Part shown: one piece after another, positions 4,550 through 54,933 of the stretch
Position numbering within the stretch: the first letter of the stretch is position 1
Layout of the letters: each line of letters opens with the position of its first letter
NCBI GenBank assembly: GCA_004022145.1
Contig: RCNU01000001.1
Source: Paecilomyces variotii
Lineage: Eukaryota
DNA: 64,000 nucleotides
Strand: one strand, 5' to 3'
The notes under the pieces: generated by a model
Database searches by the model: none
Told to the model about the DNA's origin: nothing
The model's input: the letters and a program-made list of their open reading frames with translations, nothing else
Made by a program: the position numbers and the translations under genes

Positions 4550-7424
4550 GAGCCGTGGCTATTGTTTTATACCCTAGGGAAATCAGTCCTATCTAGTGTC
4601 ATCATGGATGTCCGCCATGATCGGCAGACTTGAGAAAAAGTAATGGGGGGTTTACTGTATCTGAGAGATAATATCAGATATTGTTAAACAGCGTTGATAT
4701 TGCATACGGTAGCTTCGACTAGGAATTGGATAGTTGCTAACGAACCATGGTGACGGAGAAATTTCGGGGCCAATGAAGAAGTGGATAGTCCAATCCAACA
4801 ATACAAACCGTCATTAACAATTGATGTGCATTCCAATTGCTAGTTTCCTCATGGAATAGTCATTTGTGTCTTTATTTACATGAAATAATAGTATTTGGAA
4901 AGGGATATTTAATTTATGCGATAGGGGCAAGTGTTTCCAGCCGGACAAGGATGCCATGACTGAACCCGTGCTCCGCCAAGCTTCCTTCTTCTCACATATT
5001 TGACTATACTACTACTGTATGATCATCAGACCAGTGTAGCTTTTGCTGAACATAATCATCGTCGTCATCATCATCATCATAATAGCGCAGCCTCATCTAG
5101 AATATCAGAGACACAGTGCCGGGATAAGGAATTGCTCCGTCCAGTCACAACCTGCAGGCTGGGTCATGTGCGACGCGAGATATTCACACAGCAATATTTT
5201 TCGCCTTGGTAATACGTTGATCTTTACTGGAGAACAAGATGAATGCTGACCGTCATGTCTCTAGAAATCCCTCATGGGGCTCTGAGGGAAGAGACGAGCC
5301 CCCTCAATTGATGGGCAAACGGCGAAAAGGGCACTGCATGATAGCCAACAACGCCATGATCTCATTGAGGCACGTTCATCTGCAGCGTCGCTCGATTAAA
5401 TGCATCCTTGAGCTAGACTATCGGCCGAGATGCTTGGCTCTAATAATAATGAGATGGGCTGCATGTTGTTCCACGCGCTTCTGTGCTTTTGCTAACCGGC
5501 TACAGAAACGACGTATAGAACCGACTACAGAACCAACATACGGAGTACTGCATACAGTGCATCTCAGACGGACCACTAACAAGCCGGAAATAGCTTTCAT
5601 TACCAAGCCCTATTACTTGGCATCCATTCGATACCAGATTCCGCCTAATACAGTAGTACCCCACGGCTGGAAATACGTACCAGGCTCATAAGCGTTTATT
5701 TTTGCTGCTCAGGAATAAAGTCGAAAGTGAGTGATGTACGCCGAGACCAGTGGTAGTCTTTAGCGGCGGTTAGAGTAGACTAACTATCCCGCTTCCCTGA
5801 AGAAGCGGAGAAATTCAACAGTCCACTGTACCGGAAGCAAGTGGTTTCACTCTCTTCGTTGCTAGCAACGCTCTCGTTGGATTAATTAATTCGCGGATTC
5901 CATCACGCGCATCCTTTCCTCCGGAATCTAGATAATCTGGTCGCCTTTTCTGCGCCTCTTGTGGTATGATCCGCGGATGCCCGGTGTTGAATTGACCGCC
6001 AGCCGCTCCTTTGCAGGGATATCTCCAGGAACCGTGTTTATCGAAGAGCCTGGCTATATGCAGTGGTCCACCAATAGCAGCATTTGCATATTATACCACA
6101 GAAACCAAGCGTCTCAGGATTCAGCGGCAGAAGCTTGAGGTATAGCGGTCGACGTGCAATATCCACAAGAAGCAGCTCCCAGATGGTATGTGGCCGCTAT
6201 GTCTTCATTATTGCGAGTTTTGCCATCGAACCAGCGAAGATTAAAACAGAGCCAAGACCAGTGGTGGAATACATACGTGTTGATAATTGCCACTAACGTC
6301 TTGGTATCGGCAACGAAGCATGGTGTCGTCAATTGTCTGTCTCTGGGTCTCGGTAGCGACGAGTCTTGGCCCGGTTGAGCTCCTGGGCTATCGCACCACC
6401 AAGTTCAACAGGGACCTGCATCAACTTGTACGCTTTCCGTATGGTTCGACTGCACTGAGGCTAGTCTATCGGAAAAACAGTTCGGAAACAGGAACAGTAA
6501 ACAAAGTGGTGCAGATCTGTCGCTGCTCCAGACTCCAGCTATTACCAAGCAGCACGGCCTCGACCGCCCCGGATCACAGATCGTTTAACTAAGCGCGATG
6601 ATCATGATACGCATTGCGGCGGTAAGGCTTTTCAATTCACCTCCCGAGAGATCACTTCCACCGGTGTCATGGAAGTTTCTTGTTAACGGTTTCGGCCCTA
6701 GTTGACCTTGTGCAATATCGCCCACTCTCCATTCAAGTTGTTCAACAGACGACTATACCGCGGATCGCCGTGTGATAGTAAATTCATTGCACATTATTGG
6801 CTGCTTACCTCTCCAGTTTAGGAGTAATTTTTCTGTCTTCGATATATTCCATGCGTCCAAACACGCTGGAACTCTTTCTTCATGATTCTTGCTTTTTCCT
6901 TAGGGCCGGACACGGCTCGGAATGGCATGTACATACGGCTACATGCATTCCAAGCTTCTGCTGACGCTATTTCAGAACCCATTGGGTCACACAAGAGACG
7001 GAAGAGATGTCTAGCTGGATCTATGTGGGGACAGTGGTGTCGATTCCGTATTACTATAGGAGGCAATATTGACCAGGCCAAAAAAGAGTACTGGCCGTGA
7101 TGCTTGGCTACCATGTGGTGTATCCATTTGCACCATGTTAGCTAAGGGTGTGATCATGCAGTTCCTGTTCCTACCAAGAGAAATTATTGGCGACTTAGAG
7201 TGGCCCTATCTCCATCGCGGTCACCCGTGTGGTCCCCTGCGGATCAGTTGAGTTCTTCAGGCCCATCTACAGATGGCTGTTCGGCCTGTATCTCTATACC
7301 GTCTCTCCGGGGCGCGGCTACCAGTCTTTATAAACGAGTACCTTCCCCATCCTCATGAAGACCTTGTGCTCAAGCTCTGCTTCCTATCCTTCTGACGGCC
7401 TTATATGCTATGAAGCCTGACAAG

Positions 7425-9921
7425 ATGCGTTCAATTGGACTCTTGCTGGCTCTCGTCGGCACTGCGCGTGCAGCATGTCCTGTCATGACAGGCGAGCTTC
7501 CAGCTTCCTTTGCTAACAACCCTCATGGCCTTCAACGTCGTGATGAAGAGAGTGCATCTGTAGAGACTGAGCAGTTCCTGTCCCAGTTCTACCTCAATGA
7601 CAGCAACACCTACATGACCTCGGACGTTGGAGGTCCCATCTCCGACCAGACCAGTCTGAAGGCTGGCCAAAGAGGTTCCACCCTGCTTGAGGACTTTATC
7701 TTCCGCCAGAAGATCCAACACTTCGACCATGAGCGTGTAAGAACAGCCCATTGGACTTTTCTTTTTACCCGTCAAGTATAACTAAATGAGCGATCTAGGT
7801 ACCTGAGCGTGCAGTCCATGCTAGAGGAGCTGGAGCTCATGGTGTTTTCACCTCGTACGGTAACTTCTCCAACATCACGGCGGCCTCCTTCCTATCTGCG
7901 GAAGGGAAAGAGACACCTGTATTCGTGCGAATCTCTACTGTGGCTGGAAGCCGAGGAAGCGTTGACACAGCCCGTGATGTACATGGCTTTGCCACCAGAT
8001 TCTACACGGATGAGGGAAACTTTGGTGGGTTCGACGCCATTGCTAACTGCACGACATATGATCTGACTGTCTTGCAGACATCGTAGGAAACAATATCCCC
8101 ATCTTCTTCATCCAGGACGCGATTCTCTTTCCCGACCTCATCCATGCGATCAAGCCCAACCCGAGCAATGAGATCCCGCAGGCAGCTACTGCTCATGATA
8201 CCGCTTGGGATTTCTTCAGCCAGCAGCCCAGCTCTCTGCACTGTTTGTTCTGGGCTATGGCTGGACATGGAATTCCCCGTTCACTCAGAACTGTCGACGG
8301 CTTTGGTATTCACACCTTCCGTTTCGTCACCGACTCCGGTGCTACCAAGCTCGTCAAGTTCCACTGGACTTCGCTCCAGGGCAGAGCCAGTTTGGTGTGG
8401 GAGGAAGCGCAAGCCACAGCAGGCAAGAACGCCGACTACCTCCGTCAGGATCTTTATGAAGCAATCGAGGCTGGGAGATACCCCGAGTGGGAGGTAAGCT
8501 TTTCACATCCTTCTAGGTATCTTCGATTGTACAAACTAACTATACGCAGTTGGGCGTCCAAATCATGGACGAAGATGACGCGTTGCGTTTCGGATTCGAT
8601 CTCCTTGATCCTACGAAGCTTGTTCCTGAGGAATATGTGCCCATCACGAAACTTGGCAAGATGCAGCTCAACCGCAACCCACTCAACTACTTTGCTGAGA
8701 CTGAACAGATCATGGTAAGTTAAGAACCGAGGACGTCATGGCTGGCTCCGGTCAACTAATGGTCTGTAGTTCCAACCTGGTCACATCGTCCGGGGTATTG
8801 ATTTCACCGAAGACCCTCTGCTGCAGGGACGTATATTCTCATACCTCGACACGCAGCTGAACCGCCATGGAGGTCCCAACTTTGAACAGCTCCCGATCAA
8901 CCGACCTCGCGTGCCAATTCACAATAACAACCGCGACGGTGCTGGTAAGATTCCTAACTCCTGTTCCTCGATAACTTCAGGCGTCCTCTAATTACATACA
9001 GCTCAAAACTTTATCCCTCTGAACCCCGCTCCTTACAGCCCTAATACTGTCAACAACGGCTACCCGCTGCAAGCCAACCAGACCGCTGGAAGAGGTTTCT
9101 TCACTGCTCCCGACCGCACTGCTAGTGGAAGACTTGTTCGAACTGTCAGTGATACTTTCGCGGATGTCTGGTCCCAGCCCCGTCTGTTCTTCAACTCCCT
9201 GGTGCCAGCGGAGCAGCAGTTCCTGATCAATGCAATCCGCTTCGAGACGTCCAATGTCAAGAGCGACGTCGTGAAGAAGAATGTCATCATCCAGCTCAAC
9301 CGTGTCAGCCACGATCTGGCCAAGAGAGTCGCCGAAGCCATTGGCGTCGAAGTTCCACAGCCTGACCCAACATACTATCACAACAACAAGACCGCCAACG
9401 TGGGCAGCTTCGGTACTCCCCTCAAGAGAATCGACAACTTCAAGGTCGGTCTCCTGGCTACGGTCAACAAGCCAGAGTCTATCTCTCAGACCTCCAGCCT
9501 GAAGGACGGCTTGGCCTCCGACGGCGTCGACCTCATAGTCGTTGCTGAGCGATTCACCGACGGCGTCGACCAGACTTACTCCGCTAGCGACGCTACCAAC
9601 TTCGACGCCATCATTGTCGCCAACGGCGCTGAGGGTCTGTTCTCTCCCAAGAGTTTCACTGGTGCGACGACCAACTACTCCACCTCCACCCTCTACCCTG
9701 CGGGAAGACCGCTCGAGATCCTGGTCGACGGCTTCCGCTTCGGCAAACCAATCGGCGCTCTGGGTAGTGGCTCTGCTGCTCTCAAGTCAGCCGCTATTGA
9801 TACTTCCCGGGCTGGCGTTTACGTCGCCAACTCGAGCAGTACTGACTTCGTTAACAACGTCAAGGATGGTCTTCGCACGTTCAAGTTTCTTGACCGGTTT
9901 GCGCTCGATAAAGAAGCGTGA
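7425..9921 (+). CDS. catB: Secreted large-subunit catalase (CatB/Cat1 type)
   Basis: Signal peptide [31 protein letters not shown] across intron 1; [12 protein letters not shown] heme-Tyr motif; C-terminal flavodoxin-like domain; several short GT-AG introns. Confidence 0.95.
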
Positions 9922-12763: not shown

Positions 12764-12923
12764 TGTCGAATATTGAATCGCACAGAAGTAAGGTCTGACC
12801 TGAACAACCGAATTGCTTCTAGGTCTAGGGGCGATTTGAACCCGTATTTATCTCTAGCATACAAAGAACCTGCTGCAAACGGATGATTGACAGATCACCT
12901 GGCATTCGTTTTGTGCGCCAACA
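12764..12923 (-). mobile_element. LTR (about 160 bp, TGTT...GACA on the minus strand); 3' LTR of the Copia-like remnant
   Basis: On the minus strand the purine-rich tract TTAAGGGGGTG directly precedes TGTTGGCGC; ends TATTCGACA; homologous to 14020-14205. Confidence 0.75.
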
Positions 12924-14019: not shown

Positions 14020-14205
14020 TGTCGGTGTATGTACAAAGCGAACGCCAGGTGACCTGTCAATCATCCGTTTGCGGCAGATTCTTTGAATCCTGATTATAGG
14101 ATTGATTACTGGATTACTAGATTACTAGGATCTAGATTCTTTGTATGCTAAAGATAAATATGGGATCAAATCCCCCCCTTAGACCTAGAAGCAAGCAAGC
14201 AATTC
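14020..14205 (+). mobile_element. Second, inverted and truncated copy of the LTR at 12764-12923
   Basis: Aligns with the reverse complement of about 12810-12923 (e.g. GCCAGGTGAYCTGTCAATCATCCGTTTGC; AGACCTAGAAGCAA) with mostly transition mismatches and a 58-bp insertion. Confidence 0.8.
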
Positions 14206-21686: not shown

Positions 21687-23032
21687 CTACCGACGATGAG
21701 AGCGGACACCAAAATGTCCGTTGAGCCTTGGAGGTGTTCTATTTTCCCCTCGCAGAAATCGAGTTTTGTTGGAGGCTCCGTACTTCTCTTTTGAGGTTCC
21801 TGAAGTCTCCTCCTTTAAATCTTCGATAGCGATGTCCTTGTTGGCATTCTCCCTTCGGGGCTCTTTCATGCGGGCGTGCTTCTTACTATTTCTAGTTCGG
21901 AGCTCTTCGATAAAGGCGTCTTTAGTGGCATTTTTGGTTTGGAGCTCTTTGATACGGGCGTCCCTTTTCTTGAGATTTTTAGTTCGCAGCTCTTTAATGC
22001 GGGTGTCCTTCTTGTTATTTTTAGTTCGGAGCTCCTCGATGTGGGCGTCTTTGGTAGCATTTTCGATTTGGAGCTCTTCGATGCGGGCGTCTTTGGCGGC
22101 ATTATCGGCTTTGATATTTTCGATTATACCCGCCATATTCCTAGGAACAACATCTAAATCCCTTTGAATGACCAGGATCTCGTCGTCTTTGGCGGCATTA
22201 TCGGCTTTCAGATTCTCGATTATACCTGCCATGTTTCTAGGAACAACATCTAAATCTCTTTTAATGATCATGATCTCATCGTCTTTGGCGCGTACATCTT
22301 CCTCAAGACCTTTGATCTGATCGACATTAGTTGTGCTGTTGGAGTGCTGGATGTTATCCAGGTTATCATTAGACATCTTGAGTATGCTGACCTGTTCTTG
22401 AAGCTTCTCCTTTAACTTCGCGAAGTCTTTTTCACATCGCTGAGCTCGTTTCCGGAGTGCGTCGGCTTCTTTGGTGTGCTCTTGGATTTTATTCCTCGTG
22501 TTATTATCGGTCGTCTTGAGTCTTCTGGCCTCTTCTTGATGCATTGAAAACTCCTCCCCTAACCTCGCGAAGTCTCTCTCATATTGTTCCCGAACCGTGT
22601 TGGTTTCTTTGTCGACAGCGATTCTAATCGTCTGGTTTTGGCTATCAATAAGTTTTTCCATAGTCTCTAGAAGTCGGTTGTTTGCCCATCTCTGGAGAGA
22701 AGGTTCCGTTGGGAAGAGAGTAACGATAGCTCGAGACAAAACAATCGCGCACTACCTTACAATTAGTGATTATACCAGTAAAGACAGTGAAACAGGCTTA
22801 CTATCGCAACTAAGAAAACCTTGATGTAGTAGGTAAGAGATGTCGCCGCAGGTATGGTTAAGCCGACCGTGACATATGCAAGAAGCGCAAATGTACTGAT
22901 CTGAATCAGAAGCAGCAGCAGATCCGGGGTAAGCTGCACCAGATGGAGTGCTAGAGAATGAAAACGGATAAAGAACTTTTGTTTGATGCGCACTAGCCGA
23001 TCGCTGGAATCTATGGATTCGTACATGGCCAT
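21687..23032 (-). CDS. Orphan protein with N-terminal hydrophobic segments and a long repeat-built coiled coil
   Basis: ORFs 22763-23035 and 21687-22739 join in frame through a GTAAGC...CTAAT...TAG intron (about 22752-22801); no recognisable family. Confidence 0.55.
21834..22280 (-). repeat. Coding tandem repeats: 2 x 96 bp plus 6 x 42(45) bp
   Basis: GTCTTTGGCG recurs at 22089, 22185 and 22281; 14-aa units KDARIEELQIENAT / KDAHIEELRTKNNK etc. Confidence 0.9.
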
Positions 23033-50465: not shown

Positions 50466-51225
50466 GCGGGAATTGATTTGTATATACTTCAATCTGGGGA
50501 TATATGCTTGTTTCCAGAACTTGATGTCTACTGCTCTCGTCTTCAAGATCTGCGACATGTCAGTGTTCTTCTACGTCGTATACCATCGTCTATTATAGTC
50601 CGCTCAATCCCGCAGCTAGGACTGGGACCTATCTGATCTGCTCAACAAAGCCATGGACGATTTGGTCCTCGTAGACACCATTATAATAGCGCCCTCAGGG
50701 TGACCTGGATAATGGACATTGCTTATAGACCTAACAATGAATAGCAGGAGAAGAGGATATCGCACAATATCCTTTCAACAAACAAGGAATTAGAAAGAAC
50801 AGCGCTAAAAGGCAATGTCCTATGTATCTATGCCAGGCTGATCATTGTACGGTATGTTGTCTAGTGATGAATGAAGAGGGGTGCTTAGCAAGTGAAGCTG
50901 GAAGAGTGAAAGACCCGCGTGAAGGGGAACACACTCACCCTGAAAGGGAAAAGCTCTATCTAGTCAAAACTGTCGGCCATTTCCTGCAACTTGACCAGAT
51001 TCCATTCACCAATCGCCTGAGATTGTTGGACATTCCCTTCATAAATATTCTCTGGATACTCCTCCTCTCCTCACCGCCTTCATCGCAACCCACGCTTACT
51101 GGCTACTCTTCTGGCTATCTTCCTCACCGCCTTGCACACAGCGCCTCGCTAGTCCTGATTCTGATCTCAGCACGTGCTGTTCGGATATTTTGACCAGCAA
51201 AACAAGACTCTCACCGCCTTCGACA

Positions 51226-52388
51226 ATGGCGTCTCATTCCCAACCGTGTAAGTTCTGCCCTCCGCTTTATATATTTAGCTGCTCTTCCTCGAGGACGAAC
51301 TTCTCCCCGCATCGCACTCGTTCTCTGTATCTCTATATACACTGACCTAACGCGCACCTCTTCTTGCTCTGTCTGTTTTATATATATTCGAGTGCGATTG
51401 TACATTATCTTATATACATATATATACTAACTCGCAGCAGTTACTGCTGCTCCGGCGGCTGCTCCAGCCAACCAACCTCCAGTCTTACCGGAGTCAGCAG
51501 GGACTCGCTGGGCCCCTCGAGATCCGTTGAGGCCCGGCGCGGCGGGCGAAGCTTCGAGCCTTTGGGTCAAGGAAGCTGCCGCATTTGGGGGAAGGCTTCT
51601 TTGGGGCTGCGCACACTGCGGCAGCACGGCAACCCGCTTCAAGGGCCTCCGTGATCATCACAGTGGGAGGGACGGCTCTAGGGGCATGCACCCGGATCAT
51701 CCCTTTGAGGACTTTACGTGCTGTATAAATAATCCGAATGTGAGTGGTTCCGCTATACTTTTCGCCCATGGTTCCCATTGTGGAGGCTATCCAGGTGGGA
51801 GATTTGGAGATTTGGATAGACTTATGCTTGACAAAGAAAGATGCTGACATTGGTGATCATTCACAGCTGCAAACCCCGCGTCCTCTCATTCCCGAACTCA
51901 GGGAAGCGGCAGTCAGGGCAATCAACGAGGGCAGAGTGCTGCCATATACTCTCCAACGCTTCGACCAATTTTATACCGGCCCTGCGCTCCCTGCATACCC
52001 TCCTGGCCTTGCGCCAGCCGGCCTCGCTCCCTCTTTTGCTCCAACTCTGGCCCCAGCCCCGGCCCTTGGTCCTGGTCCTCTTCTTCCTACTCTTCCTGAC
52101 TTCGGTCATCTCACCAGTCTAAATCAGCATACGCCTGCTGCCAACAATTTCCCTGCCCCTTCCTCCGCCTATTCCTCTGATCAAGCTGCCGGCCCGGCTT
52201 TCGAGGATTTCCCCACCACGTCTGACCAGTGGCCTTTCTTCCCAGAAGAGGACTACCCGGTTCTGGGAGAACAGCAAACAGGGGCAGGCACAGAAGTAGA
52301 ATTCGGCAGTCAGTACTACTCGTATAACCCCGGAGAATACGAGGAAAGGTACGAGGAAGAAAACCAGGAAGGCGAGTCGTCTTTCTAG
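51226..52388 (+). CDS. Putative 3-exon protein (about 281 aa) with a C2H2-like finger and Pro-rich/acidic tail
   Basis: Exons 51226-51247, 51438-51739, 51867-52388; donors GTAAGT/GTGAGT, branch sites CTAAC/CTGAC, CAG acceptors; total 846 nt in one open frame; WGCAHCGSTATRFKGLRDHHSG. Confidence 0.65.
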
Positions 52389-52497
52389 GAGCTCGAGCGG
52401 TGTGCCATCGGTCAGCATCTAACAGATTATTTTTATTGCTCTATTGTGGTTGTGTTGCTCGGCCTGTACCAGGCGGCTATTTCCTTCTATTTCGAAA

Positions 52498-54315
52498 ATG
52501 GCGTCTCACCAACAAGCGGGCTCCTCTGTACCGCCTTCTAGCATCAACTCTCCAGCCCCTGCATCCACCAACGGTCAAGAAACTAGCAACACAATGGCAG
52601 ACCATGCGAAATCATCTCCTGCTCCCTCCCTGGCAGCCGATAGTGCCAGATCCAAACGAAATAAACGCGATAGTCGCAAAAAACGCGAGGCAAAAGGCCT
52701 TGATCAGGACAATATGCCCCCTAAAAAGAAAGCCGTCATTGCTCACAGCTCAGCTGTCCCCTCTTCTGCTCTTTCGATCCTTCGTCCTATGCTCCTTGCC
52801 GATCCTCGTCCCTCTGACCTCCTACCCGCGCAGCCCCGTCATCTGAACTTTGTGTATCAGAAGACTTCTGATGTCCTCAACCAGAGTTGGCGTTTCTACG
52901 AAGTCGTCGATAAACTCACAAACAAGAACGGCTTCCGTTACAGCTATGCCGTTGCCGATCCCGGATTTCCACACATCAAGTACCGCCAAACTGATGTCCC
53001 GCCTTATCATGCTCGATTCAGCTTTGAGGATTCTCCTGCTGCGATCACCTTCACCCAAGATGCTTTGGCCGTTACGACCAACGAGCCCTGGCACACTGCT
53101 CGTGCCAACGTCTGTGCAAGAGAGGGGTCTTATTATTACGAAGCTCGCGTCGTGAGTGGCATCGTCGATCCAGCACGGCGTGTGTCGAGCGCTGGTTCTG
53201 ACTCCACGTCTCGCGGACATGTTCGCCTCGGTTTTGCACGGCGTGAAGCTGAACTCGACGTCAACGTTGGGGTTGACTGCTATGGTTACGGCATACGTGA
53301 CGTGAATGGCGAAGTTGTCAATCGGATGCGCTGCGAGTATTTCTTCCCCAAGGGAGAGGCCATTCACGAGGGCGACGTGATAGGCATGCTTATTACTCTT
53401 CCACCTCTCTCCCTCCACAAGAAAGTCGTCGAAGGCACCTATGACCCCGCTGTCGATGGCGATGGCAAGAACCTCCACTCTGACCAACCTTACTATACCA
53501 ATATGATCCGCGACCGTATCCCATTTCACCTCAAATCAGATTTCTGCTGGCAACAGTCCAATATCTTCCCAACCAAACATCTTCGAGACTACGCATTCAA
53601 CCTGAAGGAGACCCCCACCTTCGGCCCACCATCACCTCTGAACAGCGAAGATCCGTCTCTTCGTACCCTGCCTGGTTCTAGCATCACTATCTTCAAGAAT
53701 GGCGTCAAGATGGGTACGCCTTTCAAAGAGCTCTACGCCTTCCTTCCGCCCGCCAGTCGACTGGCCAACGGGTCGAACAACCTTGGTATTGGCGAAAGAG
53801 AAAATGCAGACGATGGCATGATTGGGTACTTCCCCGCCGTCAGCTGCTATGGGGGAGGTGCGGTGGAATGTCGTTTCGAAGGACCCTGGTGGGTTGGTCC
53901 CCCTTCAACCACGGAGGACGGCCAGCCGATCCGTGCTATTGGAGAGAGATTCAACGATCAGATCGTGGAAGATGTCCTCGCTGACATCATTGATGAAGTC
54001 GAAGCTATGTTCCTGTGGGGTGGCCTGGAGGGAGACATTGTCGCGCGCAATACGGGCTTTGACGGTCAGGGAACCGGTGGCATTGGAGGCGCGGATGTGG
54101 CTAACGGCGGCGTGGGAGCCGTTTACCAGGCTGCTGCCGCATCATCTACTCGCTCTGCGCCTGCGGATGGGGACCATGATGAACCTGCCGGTCATCATCT
54201 CAGTCATATCGGTAACGAAGATGGAATGAGCGTGGACGCAGTAAGCACGCCAGACGCCGGTCCTGTGGGCGCAGGAGTTGATGGCGCAGATGACAAGGAT
54301 GTTGAGATGACCTGA
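52498..54315 (+). CDS. cclA: COMPASS/Set1C subunit Bre2/Ash2 (SPRY domain)
   Basis: NKNGFRY, WHTARANVCAREGSYYYEARV, HVRLGFARREAEL..VGVDCYGYGIRD, GDVIG, FKNG, GYFPAVS. Confidence 0.93.
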   Translation: MASHQQAGSSVPPSSINSPAPASTNGQETSNTMADHAKSSPAPSLAADSARSKRNKRDSRKKREAKGLDQDNMPPKKKAVIAHSSAVPSSALSILRPMLLADPRPSDLLPAQPRHLNFVYQKTSDVLNQSWRFYEVVDKLTNKNGFRYSYAVADPGFPHIKYRQTDVPPYHARFSFEDSPAAITFTQDALAVTTNEPWHTARANVCAREGSYYYEARVVSGIVDPARRVSSAGSDSTSRGHVRLGFARREAELDVNVGVDCYGYGIRDVNGEVVNRMRCEYFFPKGEAIHEGDVIGMLITLPPLSLHKKVVEGTYDPAVDGDGKNLHSDQPYYTNMIRDRIPFHLKSDFCWQQSNIFPTKHLRDYAFNLKETPTFGPPSPLNSEDPSLRTLPGSSITIFKNGVKMGTPFKELYAFLPPASRLANGSNNLGIGERENADDGMIGYFPAVSCYGGGAVECRFEGPWWVGPPSTTEDGQPIRAIGERFNDQIVEDVLADIIDEVEAMFLWGGLEGDIVARNTGFDGQGTGGIGGADVANGGVGAVYQAAAASSTRSAPADGDHDEPAGHHLSHIGNEDGMSVDAVSTPDAGPVGAGVDGADDKDVEMT

Positions 54316-54933
54316 CCGTGGCAACCATCTTTCAGTGGTCACATCCCTTGAATAGTCCCGGGGCACATCCTCTCTTAATATTGTCCTCTACAGCATCTCG
54401 CTCTCATTTTCAGTCTGGTCTCTTCGGAAAAGGCTATCTGGCCGCTCCTGGTTGTTAAAAATGGTGTTGGTTTTGCTCTCCATGGGAATAGATGGCTTAC
54501 GGGATACCTTTTCAAGAGCTTGTTTTTTAACTGCTCCTTTTCAGCAAAGTGATGTGGCTTTCACATTGTGCTGTACGATTACGGATTATGGATTTGGTGG
54601 TTTTCTTCTATTCCCCTGTATGTATGTACGCGAATATGTTCTCAAGAAAAAGCCGCGTTTGGACTTTTCCAATCCTCCTTTTACCTTCCAGGAATAGTCC
54701 CTTGCAGTGATCAGGTAGCTATTATAGCTATCCTCTAACTGTCATTGTAATTTGATATCAGGTGACATTCTTAATCATACATCGAGGCTGATTAAACCTC
54801 AGAAGAAAAAGTTCCCAGCTGCAGCCAGCCTGCAGCGATAACTAACACTGTACACATACAATCTAATCCAAGCCCAGCCAAGCCAAGCCATGGAGATAAA
54901 TATTCATCATAGACAAAACGTGAAACTTCGACC

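What the first reader, a model, noticed from the sequence alone, without database searches (positions are those of the whole stretch)
51070..52520. Hidden 3-exon zinc-finger gene packed directly in front of cclA and sharing its start context
Seen: three exons with canonical splice signals give an uninterrupted protein of about 281 aa that the ORF track splits into fragments. It has a C-x2-C-x12-H-H finger, a Pro/Ala-rich middle and a very acidic Tyr/Glu tail, an activator-like layout. Its stop (52388) is only 109 nt before the cclA ATG (52498), leaving almost no room for a terminator plus promoter. Both genes start alike: CGACAATGGCGTCTCATTCCCAACCG (MASHSQP) versus CGAAAATGGCGTCTCACCAACAAGCG (MASHQQA). 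CTCACCGCCTT occurs three times upstream (51070, 51123, 51210). Established: CclA/Bre2 is a COMPASS H3K4-methylation subunit that affects secondary metabolism in Aspergillus. Inference: the gene may have arisen by duplication or capture of the cclA 5' end. It may be co-transcribed as a bicistronic or giant-uORF unit, or alternatively spliced into cclA (a CTAAC near 52420 and a CAG near 52470 lie in the gap), and so could control COMPASS levels.
Basis: partly seen in the sequence, partly recalled or inferred. Interest (0 to 1): 0.72.

Follow-up and report, generated by a model that had tools for sequence, protein, structure and literature searches.

The report
ATG-poor zinc-finger gene before cclA
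A small zinc-finger-like gene, already annotated, lies directly in front of the histone-methylation gene cclA in Paecilomyces and in a distant relative, and it is almost free of start codons along its whole length, which suggests that ribosomes scan through it to reach cclA.

Summary
A 3-exon gene (ATG 51226, stop 52386-52388) ends 109 nt before the cclA ATG (52498). Its 280-aa product is letter-for-letter an NCBI 'hypothetical protein' of Paecilomyces variotii, so it is not a new gene. It encodes a divergent single C2H2-like finger of a rare fungal family, with dN/dS 0.06 in the core.

The gene is next to cclA in 9 of 9 P. variotii strains with both tags shown, and by consecutive accessions in strain No. 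5 and P. lecythidis. The pair also occurs in an unnamed Eurotiales fungus from metagenomes (L002), where synonymous sites are saturated.

Two new results:
- From the first ATG to the cclA ATG, with intron 2 removed, ATG is the most depleted of all 64 trinucleotides in both fungi (1 vs 11.0 expected; 0 vs 9.0). This stretch is the ATG-poorest of its length on either strand of the window and of L002.
- CTCACCGCC(TT) clusters just 5' of the gene's ATG in both fungi.

RNA contigs confirm intron 2 and bridge the spacer, but they show no splice into cclA. RefSeq fuses the two genes (858 aa); that intron is not conserved.

Best reading (about 0.5): cclA is translated, at least partly, from long transcripts that run through the zinc-finger gene. 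Origin by capture of the cclA 5' end is not shown.

The parts
51070..51220 (+). Three copies of CTCACCGCCTT (51070, 51123, 51210) in the 5' region. The last copy ends 5 nt before the ATG.
   Evidence: 3 found vs 0.02 expected; the orthologous locus L002 has 4 copies of CTCACCGCC (5634, 5674, 5725, 5737) just 5' of its ATG at 5752. X1 contig record 2 covers 51059-51218.
51226..51247 (+). Exon 1 of the zinc-finger-like gene (22 nt, MASHSQP plus 1 base, phase 1).
   Evidence: The L002 ortholog has a 34-nt exon 1 of the same phase with the same GTAAGTTCT donor. No RNA joint was seen for this intron.
51248..51440 (+). Intron 1 (193 nt). It is rich in TATATA runs, holds a conserved CCTCGAGG block, and has no ATG.
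   Evidence: No ATG vs 2.56 expected; 83 of 2000 shuffles also had none. Its last 141 nt are present, unspliced, in X1 contig record 3.
51441..51739 (+). Exon 2, holding the conserved core with the C-x2-C-x12-H-H finger-like motif and the CCINNP motif.
   Evidence: dN/dS is 0.064 for residues 23-165 vs L002.
51740..51866 (+). Intron 2 (127 nt, GT..AG). It holds 3 ATGs plus 1 that spans the exon 2/intron 2 junction.
   Evidence: The joint 51739^51867 is seen in X1 contig record 3. The same intron position occurs in the L002 ortholog and in paralogue B.
51867..52388 (+). Exon 3: a helical segment, a Pro/Ala-rich middle, an acidic Tyr/Glu tail, and TAG at 52386-52388.
   Evidence: The AF2 model has pLDDT 74-85 only in the 10-residue blocks covering residues 111-150.
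52389..52497 (+). 109-nt spacer with no ATG. It holds a T-rich stretch whose length varies between strains.
   Evidence: The other-strain contigs of X5 and X10 lack 16 nt in all between 52430 and 52447. The L002 spacer is 230 nt, also with no ATG.
52498..54315 (+). cclA/bre2 coding sequence (605 aa, no intron).
   Evidence: It matches PDB Bre2 chain 6ven_O at E 3.9e-30. 886 homologues have E <= 1e-20, many named Bre2 or SPRY.
51229..52497 (+). ATG desert from the first ATG to the cclA ATG. In the RNA with intron 2 removed the only ATG is the in-frame Met89 codon at 51686.
51219..51236 (+). Start context TTCGACAATGGCGTCTCA, matching 17 of 18 bases at 52491-52508 (the cclA start).
52349..52541 (+). 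GT..AG intron implied by the RefSeq fusion model XP_028489235.1 (858 aa). I reject it as a conserved feature.
   Evidence: P0150 is the first 267 aa of the upstream gene plus CclA from residue 15. No such joint appears. The acceptor is not present in L002.

Best explanation
Shown:
- 51226-52388 is a real three-exon protein-coding gene, already annotated. It encodes a small, mostly disordered protein with one divergent C2H2-like finger.
- It has been kept immediately upstream of cclA, on the same strand, in Paecilomyces and in a distant Eurotiales fungus.

Inferred:
- The gene body also serves as a scanned leader for cclA. Part of the cclA mRNA starts upstream of, or inside, the zinc-finger gene and runs through exons 2-3 and the spacer.
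- Selection has therefore removed ATGs in all three frames from exon 1 onward. That covers intron 1 (which is sometimes kept), exons 2-3 and the spacer, but not intron 2 (which is always removed).
- 40S subunits that do not start at the first ATG then reach the cclA ATG unhindered.
- Three routes past the first ATG remain open: leaky scanning, a transcription start inside the TATA-rich intron 1, or retention of intron 1. Retention turns the first ATG into a short uORF (39 codons here, 22 in L002) that would be followed by reinitiation.
- The CTCACCGCC repeats are a conserved cis element of the shared upstream control region. The factor that binds them is unknown.
For: The gene is real:
- The spliced product is identical to P0139 over 280 of 280 residues.
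- The core has dN/dS 0.064 while pS is 0.745, i.e. saturated.
- The intron 2 joint is present in an RNA-derived contig.
- Intron phases and positions are shared with L002.

Linkage to cclA:
- Locus tags are consecutive in 9 of 9 P. variotii strains with both tags shown. Accessions are consecutive in strain No. 5 and in 2 P. lecythidis assemblies.
- In L002 the ortholog lies at 5752-6917 and the cclA ATG at 7148.

ATG desert:
- The longest ATG-free stretch of the 64-kb window is 51841->52498. The longest in L002 is 6369->7148. Both end at the cclA ATG.
- With intron 2 removed, ATG counts are 1 vs 11.0 expected (window, 1142 nt) and 0 vs 9.0 (L002, 1244 nt). ATG is the most depleted of the 64 trinucleotides in both.
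- CAT occurs 15 and 8 times in the same stretches.
- Dinucleotide shuffles of exon 3 plus spacer had no ATG in 1 of 2000 (window) and 4 of 2000 (L002).
- With the protein held fixed, out-of-frame ATGs are 0 vs 3.07 expected (37 of 2000 resamples reach 0) and 0 vs 3.62 (15 of 2000). cclA itself is not depleted: 27 vs 23.6 and 21 vs 22.9.
- The locus is the global minimum of ATG count on either strand in the window (5 vs mean 21.4) and in L002 (4 vs 22.3).
- In both fungi the ATGs that are not coding lie in intron 2, plus one in the window that spans the exon 2/intron 2 junction and is lost on splicing.
- Orthologs P0006, P0007 and the L002 protein have no internal Met.

RNA:
- X1 record 3 carries 141 nt of unspliced intron 1, has intron 2 removed, and then runs collinear to beyond cclA.
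- A contig bridges the upstream stop codon and the cclA ATG in each of X1, X2 and X10.

Cis element and precedent:
- The motif clusters 5' of the ATG in both fungi.
- Under-representation of AUGs before ORF 2 is a described hallmark of leaky-scanning bicistrons (PMC11892635, abstract and passages).
Against: - Contigs cannot show single molecules, starts or ends. X1 record 3 (4946 nt) also runs about 2 kb past 54400 towards the convergent neighbour, so bridging may only reflect overlapping transcripts.
- No long reads or raw reads were available.
- Much of the ATG poverty follows from the Pro/Ala-rich, Met-poor protein. Given the protein, only about 3 out-of-frame ATGs are expected. The own-codon permutation in L002 reaches 0 in 250 of 2000 trials.
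- An ordinary catalase-like ORF in the same window has a 585-nt ATG-free stretch.
- The first ATG has A at -3 and G at +4, the same as cclA. The algal leaky-scanning loci have weak ORF 1 contexts instead.
- P. variotii has an in-frame ATG (Met89, 51686) in the path.
- Intron 1 is no better conserved than intron 2: 46% vs 44% identity over the longer sequence.
- Polycistronic transcripts were not found in the ascomycete N. crassa by the criteria of PMC4503453 (passages).
Confidence: 0.5

Rival explanations
1. These are ordinary tandem neighbours. Each gene makes its own mRNA, with at most short overlapping UTRs as in any compact fungal genome. The ATG poverty is a by-product of a pyrimidine-rich, Pro/Ala-rich, Met-poor disordered protein together with two short ATG-free UTRs.
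For: - Given the protein, only 1.7-3.6 out-of-frame ATGs are expected. The own-codon permutation in L002 gives 0 in 250 of 2000 trials.
- Spacers alone are ATG-free in 194 of 2000 and 276 of 2000 shuffles.
- A 585-nt ATG-free stretch lies in an ordinary ORF at 9281-9866.
- Contigs that bridge genes do not show one transcript.
- All annotations seen except the RefSeq model call two genes.
Against: - ATG is the single most depleted trinucleotide in both fungi even though synonymous sites are saturated.
- The depletion covers the AT-rich intron 1 but not intron 2.
- The locus is the global ATG minimum on both strands in both sequences.
- The tail evolves fast (dN/dS 0.39), yet no lineage has gained a Met there.
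Confidence: 0.35
2. The two genes are one. A GT..AG intron (52349-52541, as in RefSeq XP_028489235.1; or 52349-52472, which is in frame and would keep all of CclA) splices the zinc-finger protein onto CclA.
For: - P0150 (858 aa) is the first 267 aa of the upstream gene plus CclA from residue 15.
- The window shows GTACGA at 52349, CTAAC at 52419, CAG ending at 52472 and TAG ending at 52541. The frame arithmetic is my own reading of that sequence.
Against: - No such joint appears in the contigs of X1, X2 or X10. All three are collinear across 52349-52541. Contigs can drop rare forms, so this is not proof of absence.
- The RefSeq intron deletes MASHQQAGSSVPPS, part of an N-terminus conserved across Eurotiales: 97 of 120 representatives start MAS.
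- L002 has no AG at the matching place, and the tail that carries the donor is not conserved in P0006, P0007 or L002.
- The 11 other P. variotii cclA protein records listed, plus those of strain No. 5 and P. lecythidis, are two-gene models of 605-607 aa.
Confidence: 0.04
3. This concerns the start likeness only and does not exclude the readings above. The 18-nt start context, and perhaps exon 1, was copied between the two genes by a micro-duplication or short-tract gene conversion. That would explain why His4 occurs in both proteins only in Paecilomyces.
For: - 17 of 18 bases are identical, including 7 bases 5' of the ATG. This is the only such ATG-centred pair in the window outside true repeats.
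- CclA starts MASH in only 1 of 120 listed representatives, the Paecilomyces cluster.
- In L002 the two starts also share CGCCATGGC. That differs from the Paecilomyces contexts.
- Type B relatives have long, unrelated N-termini.
Against: - Only 18 nt match, and nothing matches in the flanks.
- MAS followed by small residues, with A at -3 and G at +4, is a favoured start in any case.
- The species-specific contexts could simply reflect G+C content: 0.51 vs 0.60 in the 200 nt upstream.
Confidence: 0.25

Closest known systems
Nuclear bicistronic loci of green algae translated by leaky scanning (PMC11892635; abstract and passages read)
   Same: Two conserved ORFs lie on one strand with a short inter-ORF spacer, and AUGs are strongly under-represented before the ORF 2 start.
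   Different: - Here ORF 1 has a strong context (A at -3, G at +4), not a weak one.
- ORF 1 is 280 codons long and has two introns.
- A single transcript is not shown.
- The host is an ascomycete.
Glarea lozoyensis IGG1 bicistron and its 9-bp derivative IGG6 (PMC10352335; passages read)
   Same: It is a native fungal (ascomycete) gene pair expressed from one mRNA, with both proteins made separately.
   Different: That system is explained by reinitiation after the full upstream ORF, driven by a short intergenic sequence. I did not see or compare the sequence of that element, and an ATG desert is not part of that model.
Polycistronic transcripts of Agaricomycetes (PMC4503453; passages read)
   Same: These are conserved tandem gene pairs with read-through transcripts.
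   Different: They are known from long reads in basidiomycetes. The same criteria found 0 in N. crassa, and how they are translated was left open.
Classical C2H2 zinc fingers (Pfam zf-C2H2 families)
   Same: C-x2-C-x12-H is present. Type B relatives have the full C-x2-C-x12-H-x4-H. Poly-finger proteins hit residues 51-78.
   Different: - In the cclA-linked type the next His after the HH pair comes 9-10 residues later.
- All Pfam scores fall far below their cut-offs (best 14.2 bits vs 27).
- The finger is single and is followed by a family-specific CC-x-NNP motif.
RefSeq model XP_028489235.1 (C8Q69DRAFT_494918, 858 aa)
   Same: It covers the same two genes of P. variotii.
   Different: It joins them through an intron that neither the RNA contigs nor conservation supports.

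Membership tests
C2H2 zinc finger (Pfam zf-C2H2 type) | Ligand spacing C-x2-4-C-x12-H-x3-5-H | tested here: not met
   The window protein has C64-x2-C67-x12-H80-H81, and the next His is H91 (x9). L002 is alike. Type B relatives (P0131, P0133, P0134, L002 paralogue B) do meet the spacing with H-x4-H.
C2H2 zinc finger (Pfam zf-C2H2 type) | Score at or above a Pfam gathering cut-off | tested here: not met
   The best score is 14.2 bits vs a cut-off of 27 (PF23225). 4 of 9 family members hit it, with best E 0.16. PF13894 hits 1 of 9. The PDB profile search gives a best E of 0.02, to ZNF24.
C2H2 zinc finger (Pfam zf-C2H2 type) | Beta-beta-alpha fold around a zinc ion | tested here: inconclusive
   The AF2 model has mean pLDDT 48, with residues 60-107 below 50. 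No fold search was run on it.
CclA/Bre2 COMPASS subunit (the downstream gene) | Sequence homology to Bre2/Ash2 across the SPRY core | tested here: met
   Matches to 6ven_O (E 3.9e-30), 6bx3_K and 6chg_B, and more weakly to ASH2L chains. Orthologues at 65-92% identity are named Bre2 or SPRY. Pfam itself gave no hit at E <= 1.
Leaky-scanning bicistronic mRNA (green-alga type) | AUGs under-represented between the ORF 1 and ORF 2 starts | tested here: met
   1 vs 11.0 expected in the window and 0 vs 9.0 in L002. ATG is the most depleted trinucleotide in both.
Leaky-scanning bicistronic mRNA (green-alga type) | Weak initiation context at ORF 1 relative to ORF 2 | tested here: not met
   Both starts have A at -3 and G at +4, and the two contexts are 17 of 18 identical. 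The genome's own consensus was not derived.
Leaky-scanning bicistronic mRNA (green-alga type) | One capped, polyadenylated molecule carrying both ORFs | not testable with these tools
   Only assembled contigs were on hand. They bridge the spacer in X1, X2 and X10 but cannot show single molecules.
Spliced fusion gene (RefSeq 858-aa model) | Junction 52348^52542 in RNA, and conservation of its splice sites | tested here: not met
   No such joint appears in the contigs that cover it. The acceptor is absent in L002. The donor region is not conserved in P0006 or P0007. Rare forms cannot be excluded from contigs.

The most novel reading that the evidence does not exclude
The zinc-finger gene and cclA form one conserved two-protein expression unit in an ascomycete, and the fate of intron 1 (or a start site inside it) decides the output.
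- If intron 1 is spliced, the first AUG opens the 280-codon zinc-finger ORF.
- If it is retained or bypassed, the same RNA carries only a short uORF, or none, followed by a kilobase-long AUG-free leader. That leader delivers ribosomes to CclA.
The dose of a COMPASS subunit, and with it H3K4 methylation and secondary-metabolite silencing, would then be set after transcription and in opposition to the zinc-finger protein.
Probability: 0.2. Interest if true: 0.8.

Novelty: new member of a known kind. Interest (0 to 1): 0.6.

Why it matters
In Aspergillus nidulans, deleting cclA abolishes H3K4 di- and trimethylation and switches on silent secondary-metabolite clusters (PMC3901194, passages). Any built-in control of CclA dosage therefore bears on chromatin control of fungal metabolism.

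If ribosomes do reach cclA through an upstream gene purged of AUGs, this would be a conserved case in a filamentous ascomycete of a design so far documented mainly in green algae. The design can be recognised from sequence alone, by an ATG desert that ends at the next gene's start. That gives annotators a simple test for other such pairs.

The work also flags the 858-aa RefSeq model as a probable false fusion. It defines a small fungal family of single-finger proteins and a conserved CTCACCGCC promoter or leader element.

Tried and rejected
Searches and models that gave nothing useful:
- The 'longer' protein search with exon 3 found nothing. This was my mis-setting; 'near' then found the annotated proteins.
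- No whole genome is held for the window, so paralogues elsewhere in P. variotii could not be sought. tblastn found none in the 64 kb.
- The AF2 model was too poor (pLDDT 48) to justify a fold search.
- The Atlas gave only unnamed clusters at 0.91 or below.
- Rfam gave one noise hit, 17.7 bits against a cut-off of 160, on the opposite strand.
- Paper search for cclA plus Paecilomyces: 8 papers listed, none on this locus by title or abstract.

RNA contigs:
- Stretches without cover (51219-51299 in X1, 52227-52280 in X2), contig ends at 51300, 51867 and 52281, and per-contig depths (8.5, 8.9, 52.4, 253.9) tempted me to place transcription starts in intron 1 and in exon 3. Contigs cannot show starts, ends or local depth, so I draw nothing from them.
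- X5 is a 23-kb contig that still holds both introns. It is DNA-like and therefore uninformative.
- The exon 1-exon 2 joint was not seen in any run.

Ideas considered and dropped:
- Intron 1 as an especially conserved element. It is no better conserved than intron 2.
- Naming the factor that binds the CTCACCGCC motif. I found no convincing match among binding sites I recall, and no tool was available to test this.
- The whole gene as a copy of cclA. There is no similarity beyond the 18 nt.


Full report
**Observation.**
- The ATG is at 51226.
- Exon 1 is 51226-51247. Intron 1 is 51248-51440 (GTAAGT..CAGCAG, a tandem acceptor). Exon 2 is 51441-51739. Intron 2 is 51740-51866 (GTGAGT..CAG). Exon 3 is 51867-52388 (TAG).
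- With the 51441 acceptor the product is 280 aa. With 51438 it is 281 aa.
- The gap to the cclA ATG at 52498 is 109 nt.
- CTCACCGCCTT occurs three times in the 64 kb, all at the stated places. The expectation is 0.02, and 0 of 100 shuffles reached 3.
- The two start contexts match in 17 of 18 bases. Of 2200 ATG-centred 18-mers in the window, only 6 pairs reach 17 of 18, and the other 5 lie in real repeats or palindromes.

**What the gene is.** The organism is Paecilomyces variotii.
- The 280-aa product is identical, residue for residue, to P0139. That is an NCBI 'hypothetical protein' of strains DTO271D3 and DTO212C5. Near-identical records exist for other strains, so the gene is annotated, not hidden.
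- Orthologues in 'P. variotii No. 5' (P0006) and P. lecythidis (P0007) match exon 3 at 55-57% identity.
- An exhaustive phmmer search with exon 2 found only 11 proteins at E <= 0.001. P0007 was the best. P0130, P0131 (Myotisia sp., Onygenales), P0133, P0134 and P0135 are further fungal relatives. Four were long multi-finger proteins that match only residues 43-78. One (P0136) was an unrelated repeat protein.
- The family core runs from about residue 30 to residue 150. Invariant residues are G63, H66, C67, R73, K75, L77, D79, H80, H81, H91, C101, C102, N104, N105 and P106.
- The distant relatives have a canonical C-x2-C-x12-H-x4-H. The cclA-linked type has a longer loop after the HH pair.
- Pfam and a PDB profile search give only sub-threshold C2H2 hits. 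The AF2 model is poor: pLDDT 48, and above 70 only in the blocks covering residues 111-150. The Atlas gave no lead.
- I therefore call it a divergent single C2H2-like finger protein with a disordered Pro/Ala-rich and acidic tail. An activator or adaptor role is only a guess.

**Linkage to cclA.** The downstream ORF is CclA/Bre2. It matches solved Bre2 chains (6ven_O, E 3.9e-30) and hundreds of Eurotiales orthologues.
- Locus tags of the two genes are consecutive in 9 of 9 P. variotii strains for which both tags were shown. Accessions are consecutive in strain No. 5 and in two P. lecythidis assemblies.
- A scan of metagenome contigs with the family alignment gave 6 loci. L002, L003 and L004 are identical over the 12.5 kb held.
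- Their CclA (P0011) is 72-76% identical to the CclA of Paecilomyces, Rasamsonia and Aspergillus alike.
- In L002 the ortholog matches at 68% identity over residues 23-160. It has a 34-nt exon 1 of the same phase, the same GTAAGTTCT donor and the same second intron position. It lies at 5752-6917, and cclA starts at 7148 on the same strand.
- By my reading of the two translations, the convergent downstream ORF is also shared.
- Between the window and L002, synonymous sites are saturated (pS 0.745). The core has pN 0.206, giving dN/dS 0.064 over 138 codon pairs. The tail has dN/dS 0.39 on a weak alignment. The core is clearly under protein-level selection.
- L002 also carries a second family member about 2.5 kb upstream (ATG at 2015). 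It has a long N-terminus, the canonical finger and the same intron position. The window has no such copy.

**ATG desert.** This is the main new result.
- The longest ATG-free stretch of the whole window runs from 51841, in intron 2, to the cclA ATG (657 nt). The third longest runs from the upstream gene's ATG to 51686. The fifth longest is the 355 nt before that ATG.
- In L002 the two longest stretches are the matching ones: 6369->7148 and 5752->6281.
- Between the two start codons the window has ATGs only at 51686 (in-frame Met89), at 51738 (spanning the exon 2/intron 2 junction and lost on splicing), and at 51768, 51824 and 51841 (intron 2). L002 has four, all in intron 2.
- With intron 2 removed and intron 1 kept, ATG counts are 1 vs 11.0 expected in the window (1142 nt) and 0 vs 9.0 in L002 (1244 nt). 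ATG is the most depleted of all 64 trinucleotides in both. CAT occurs 15 and 8 times in the same stretches.
- Dinucleotide shuffles of exon 3 plus spacer lack ATG in 1 of 2000 (window) and 4 of 2000 (L002).
- With the protein held fixed and codons resampled, out-of-frame ATGs are 0 vs 3.07 expected in the window (37 of 2000 resamples reach 0) and 0 vs 3.62 in L002 (15 of 2000). With own-codon permutation the figures are 30 of 2000 and 250 of 2000. The cclA coding sequences are not depleted.
- Intron 1 has no ATG in either fungus: 83 of 2000 and 367 of 2000 shuffles also had none.
- The locus is the global minimum of ATG count for its length, on either strand, in both the window and L002.
- None of the 15 strain differences checked between 51351 and 52489 creates an ATG.
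- Paralogue B has 14 ATGs in 1161 nt.
- Because neutral sites are saturated between the two fungi, the shared absence of ATGs is not inherited identity.

**Caveats on the desert.**
- Most of the deficit comes from the Met-poor, Pro/Ala-rich protein itself.
- An ordinary catalase-like ORF has a 585-nt ATG-free stretch in the same window.

**RNA.** Only assembled contigs were available.
- In X1, one 4946-nt contig covers 51300-51739, skips 51740-51866 (GT..AG), and then runs collinear from 51867 past 54400. Intron 2 is therefore confirmed. The same RNA-derived contig holds the last 141 nt of intron 1 unspliced.
- Contigs bridge the upstream stop codon and the cclA ATG in X1, X2 (52281-54400) and X10 (51879-52670).
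- No contig shows a joint within 52349-52541.
- X5 is a 23-kb contig that still holds the introns, so it says nothing.
- Contigs do not show single molecules, starts, ends or local depth. The X1 contig also runs about 2 kb beyond 54400 towards the convergent neighbour. Bridging is therefore compatible with merely overlapping transcripts.

**Cis motif and start likeness.**
- L002 has CTCACCGCC at 5634, 5674, 5725 and 5737, all on the + strand within 120 nt of its ATG at 5752. It has a further cluster near 300-380, upstream of a TATA-like site.
- Given saturated divergence, this is a footprint of a functional element. The factor is unknown.
- X1 record 2 covers 51059-51218, so at least two copies can be transcribed.
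- CclA begins with MAS in 97 of 120 listed representatives and with MASH in 1 of 120, the Paecilomyces cluster. The MAS start of cclA is therefore ancient, and only His4 and the flanking bases are Paecilomyces-specific.
- In L002 the two starts share CGCCATGGC but little more.
- A short copy or conversion tract is possible. Chance combined with start-site preferences is also possible. I cannot decide between them.

**The fusion model.** RefSeq XP_028489235.1 (P0150, 858 aa) is the first 267 residues of the upstream gene joined to CclA from residue 15. That implies an intron at 52349-52541.
- This intron removes part of the conserved CclA N-terminus.
- Its acceptor is missing in L002.
- Its donor lies in the unconserved tail.
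- No contig shows it.
It has no support either.

**Mechanism.** I commit to the following at about 0.5.
- The gene is a separate coding gene.
- Its body, with intron 2 removed, is also travelled by scanning ribosomes on long cclA-bearing transcripts. This is why AUGs have been purged up to the cclA start.
- Three routes could let ribosomes pass the first AUG: leaky scanning, a start site in the TATA-rich intron 1, or intron 1 retention. Retention makes a 39-codon uORF here and a 22-codon uORF in L002, by my reading, and would be followed by reinitiation.
- Against plain leaky scanning, the first AUG has a strong context. The algal loci have weak ones.
- The main rival, at about 0.35, is ordinary neighbours with composition-driven ATG poverty.

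**Known systems.**
- AUG under-representation before ORF 2 marks green-algal bicistrons (PMC11892635, abstract and passages).
- A native bicistron with reinitiation is described in Glarea (PMC10352335, passages).
- Polycistronic transcripts are common in Agaricomycetes, but 0 were found in N. crassa (PMC4503453, passages).
- Two earlier notes of this scan describe similar ATG deserts in other fungi. I did not check them.
- cclA's role in H3K4 methylation and cluster silencing is taken from PMC3901194 (passages).

**Verdict.** The gene itself is known and ordinary. The conserved pairing with cclA, the ATG desert and the motif are new and worth a test. Long-read and cap-mapping data would settle the question.

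Noticed in passing
L002:1997-3291: A second family member (type B) lies about 2.5 kb upstream of the cclA-linked copy in the metagenome fungus. It has a long N-terminus, a canonical C-x2-C-x12-H-x4-H finger and the same intron position after CINNPH. The window has no counterpart.
   Followed up: partly
L005:3728-4033 and L006:3522-3644: A degenerate fragment copy of the cclA-linked finger gene (finger region only, frame broken afterwards) sits in an AT-rich stretch of another large contig. P0130 in the protein library looks like a mis-called product of such a copy.
   Followed up: partly
window 52430-52447 and after 54322: Contigs from other strains (X5, X10) lack 16 nt of the T-rich part of the spacer. 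They also carry a 26-nt insertion just after the cclA stop codon.
   Followed up: no
window 9281-9866: The second-longest ATG-free stretch of the window (585 nt) lies inside an ordinary catalase-like ORF (8992-9921). I used it as a caution for the ATG-desert argument.
   Followed up: partly
window 22102-22249 (- strand): Two pairs of identical ATG-centred 18-mers lie exactly 96 nt apart, which points to a tandem duplication of about 96 nt.
   Followed up: no
window 12860-12883 and 14064-14145: Identical or near-identical 18-mers occur on opposite strands about 1.2 kb apart, which suggests an inverted repeat.
   Followed up: no
L002:300-380: A further cluster of the motif (AAGGCGGT twice on the - strand, CTCACCGCCTT once on the + strand) lies about 100-180 nt upstream of a TATA-like site at about 480. 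The motif is therefore probably a general promoter element in that fungus.
   Followed up: no
window 50900-51073: An X1 contig of 2001 nt covers the upstream 472-aa ORF region and stops at 51073 with an adapter-like loose end (GATCGGAAGAG), at the first motif copy. I drew no conclusion from it.
   Followed up: no
window 50741-51226: One strain's annotation (P0141, 400 aa) extends the protein upstream through the ATG-free 5' region. This is probably an artefact of an indel or of the gene caller.
   Followed up: no
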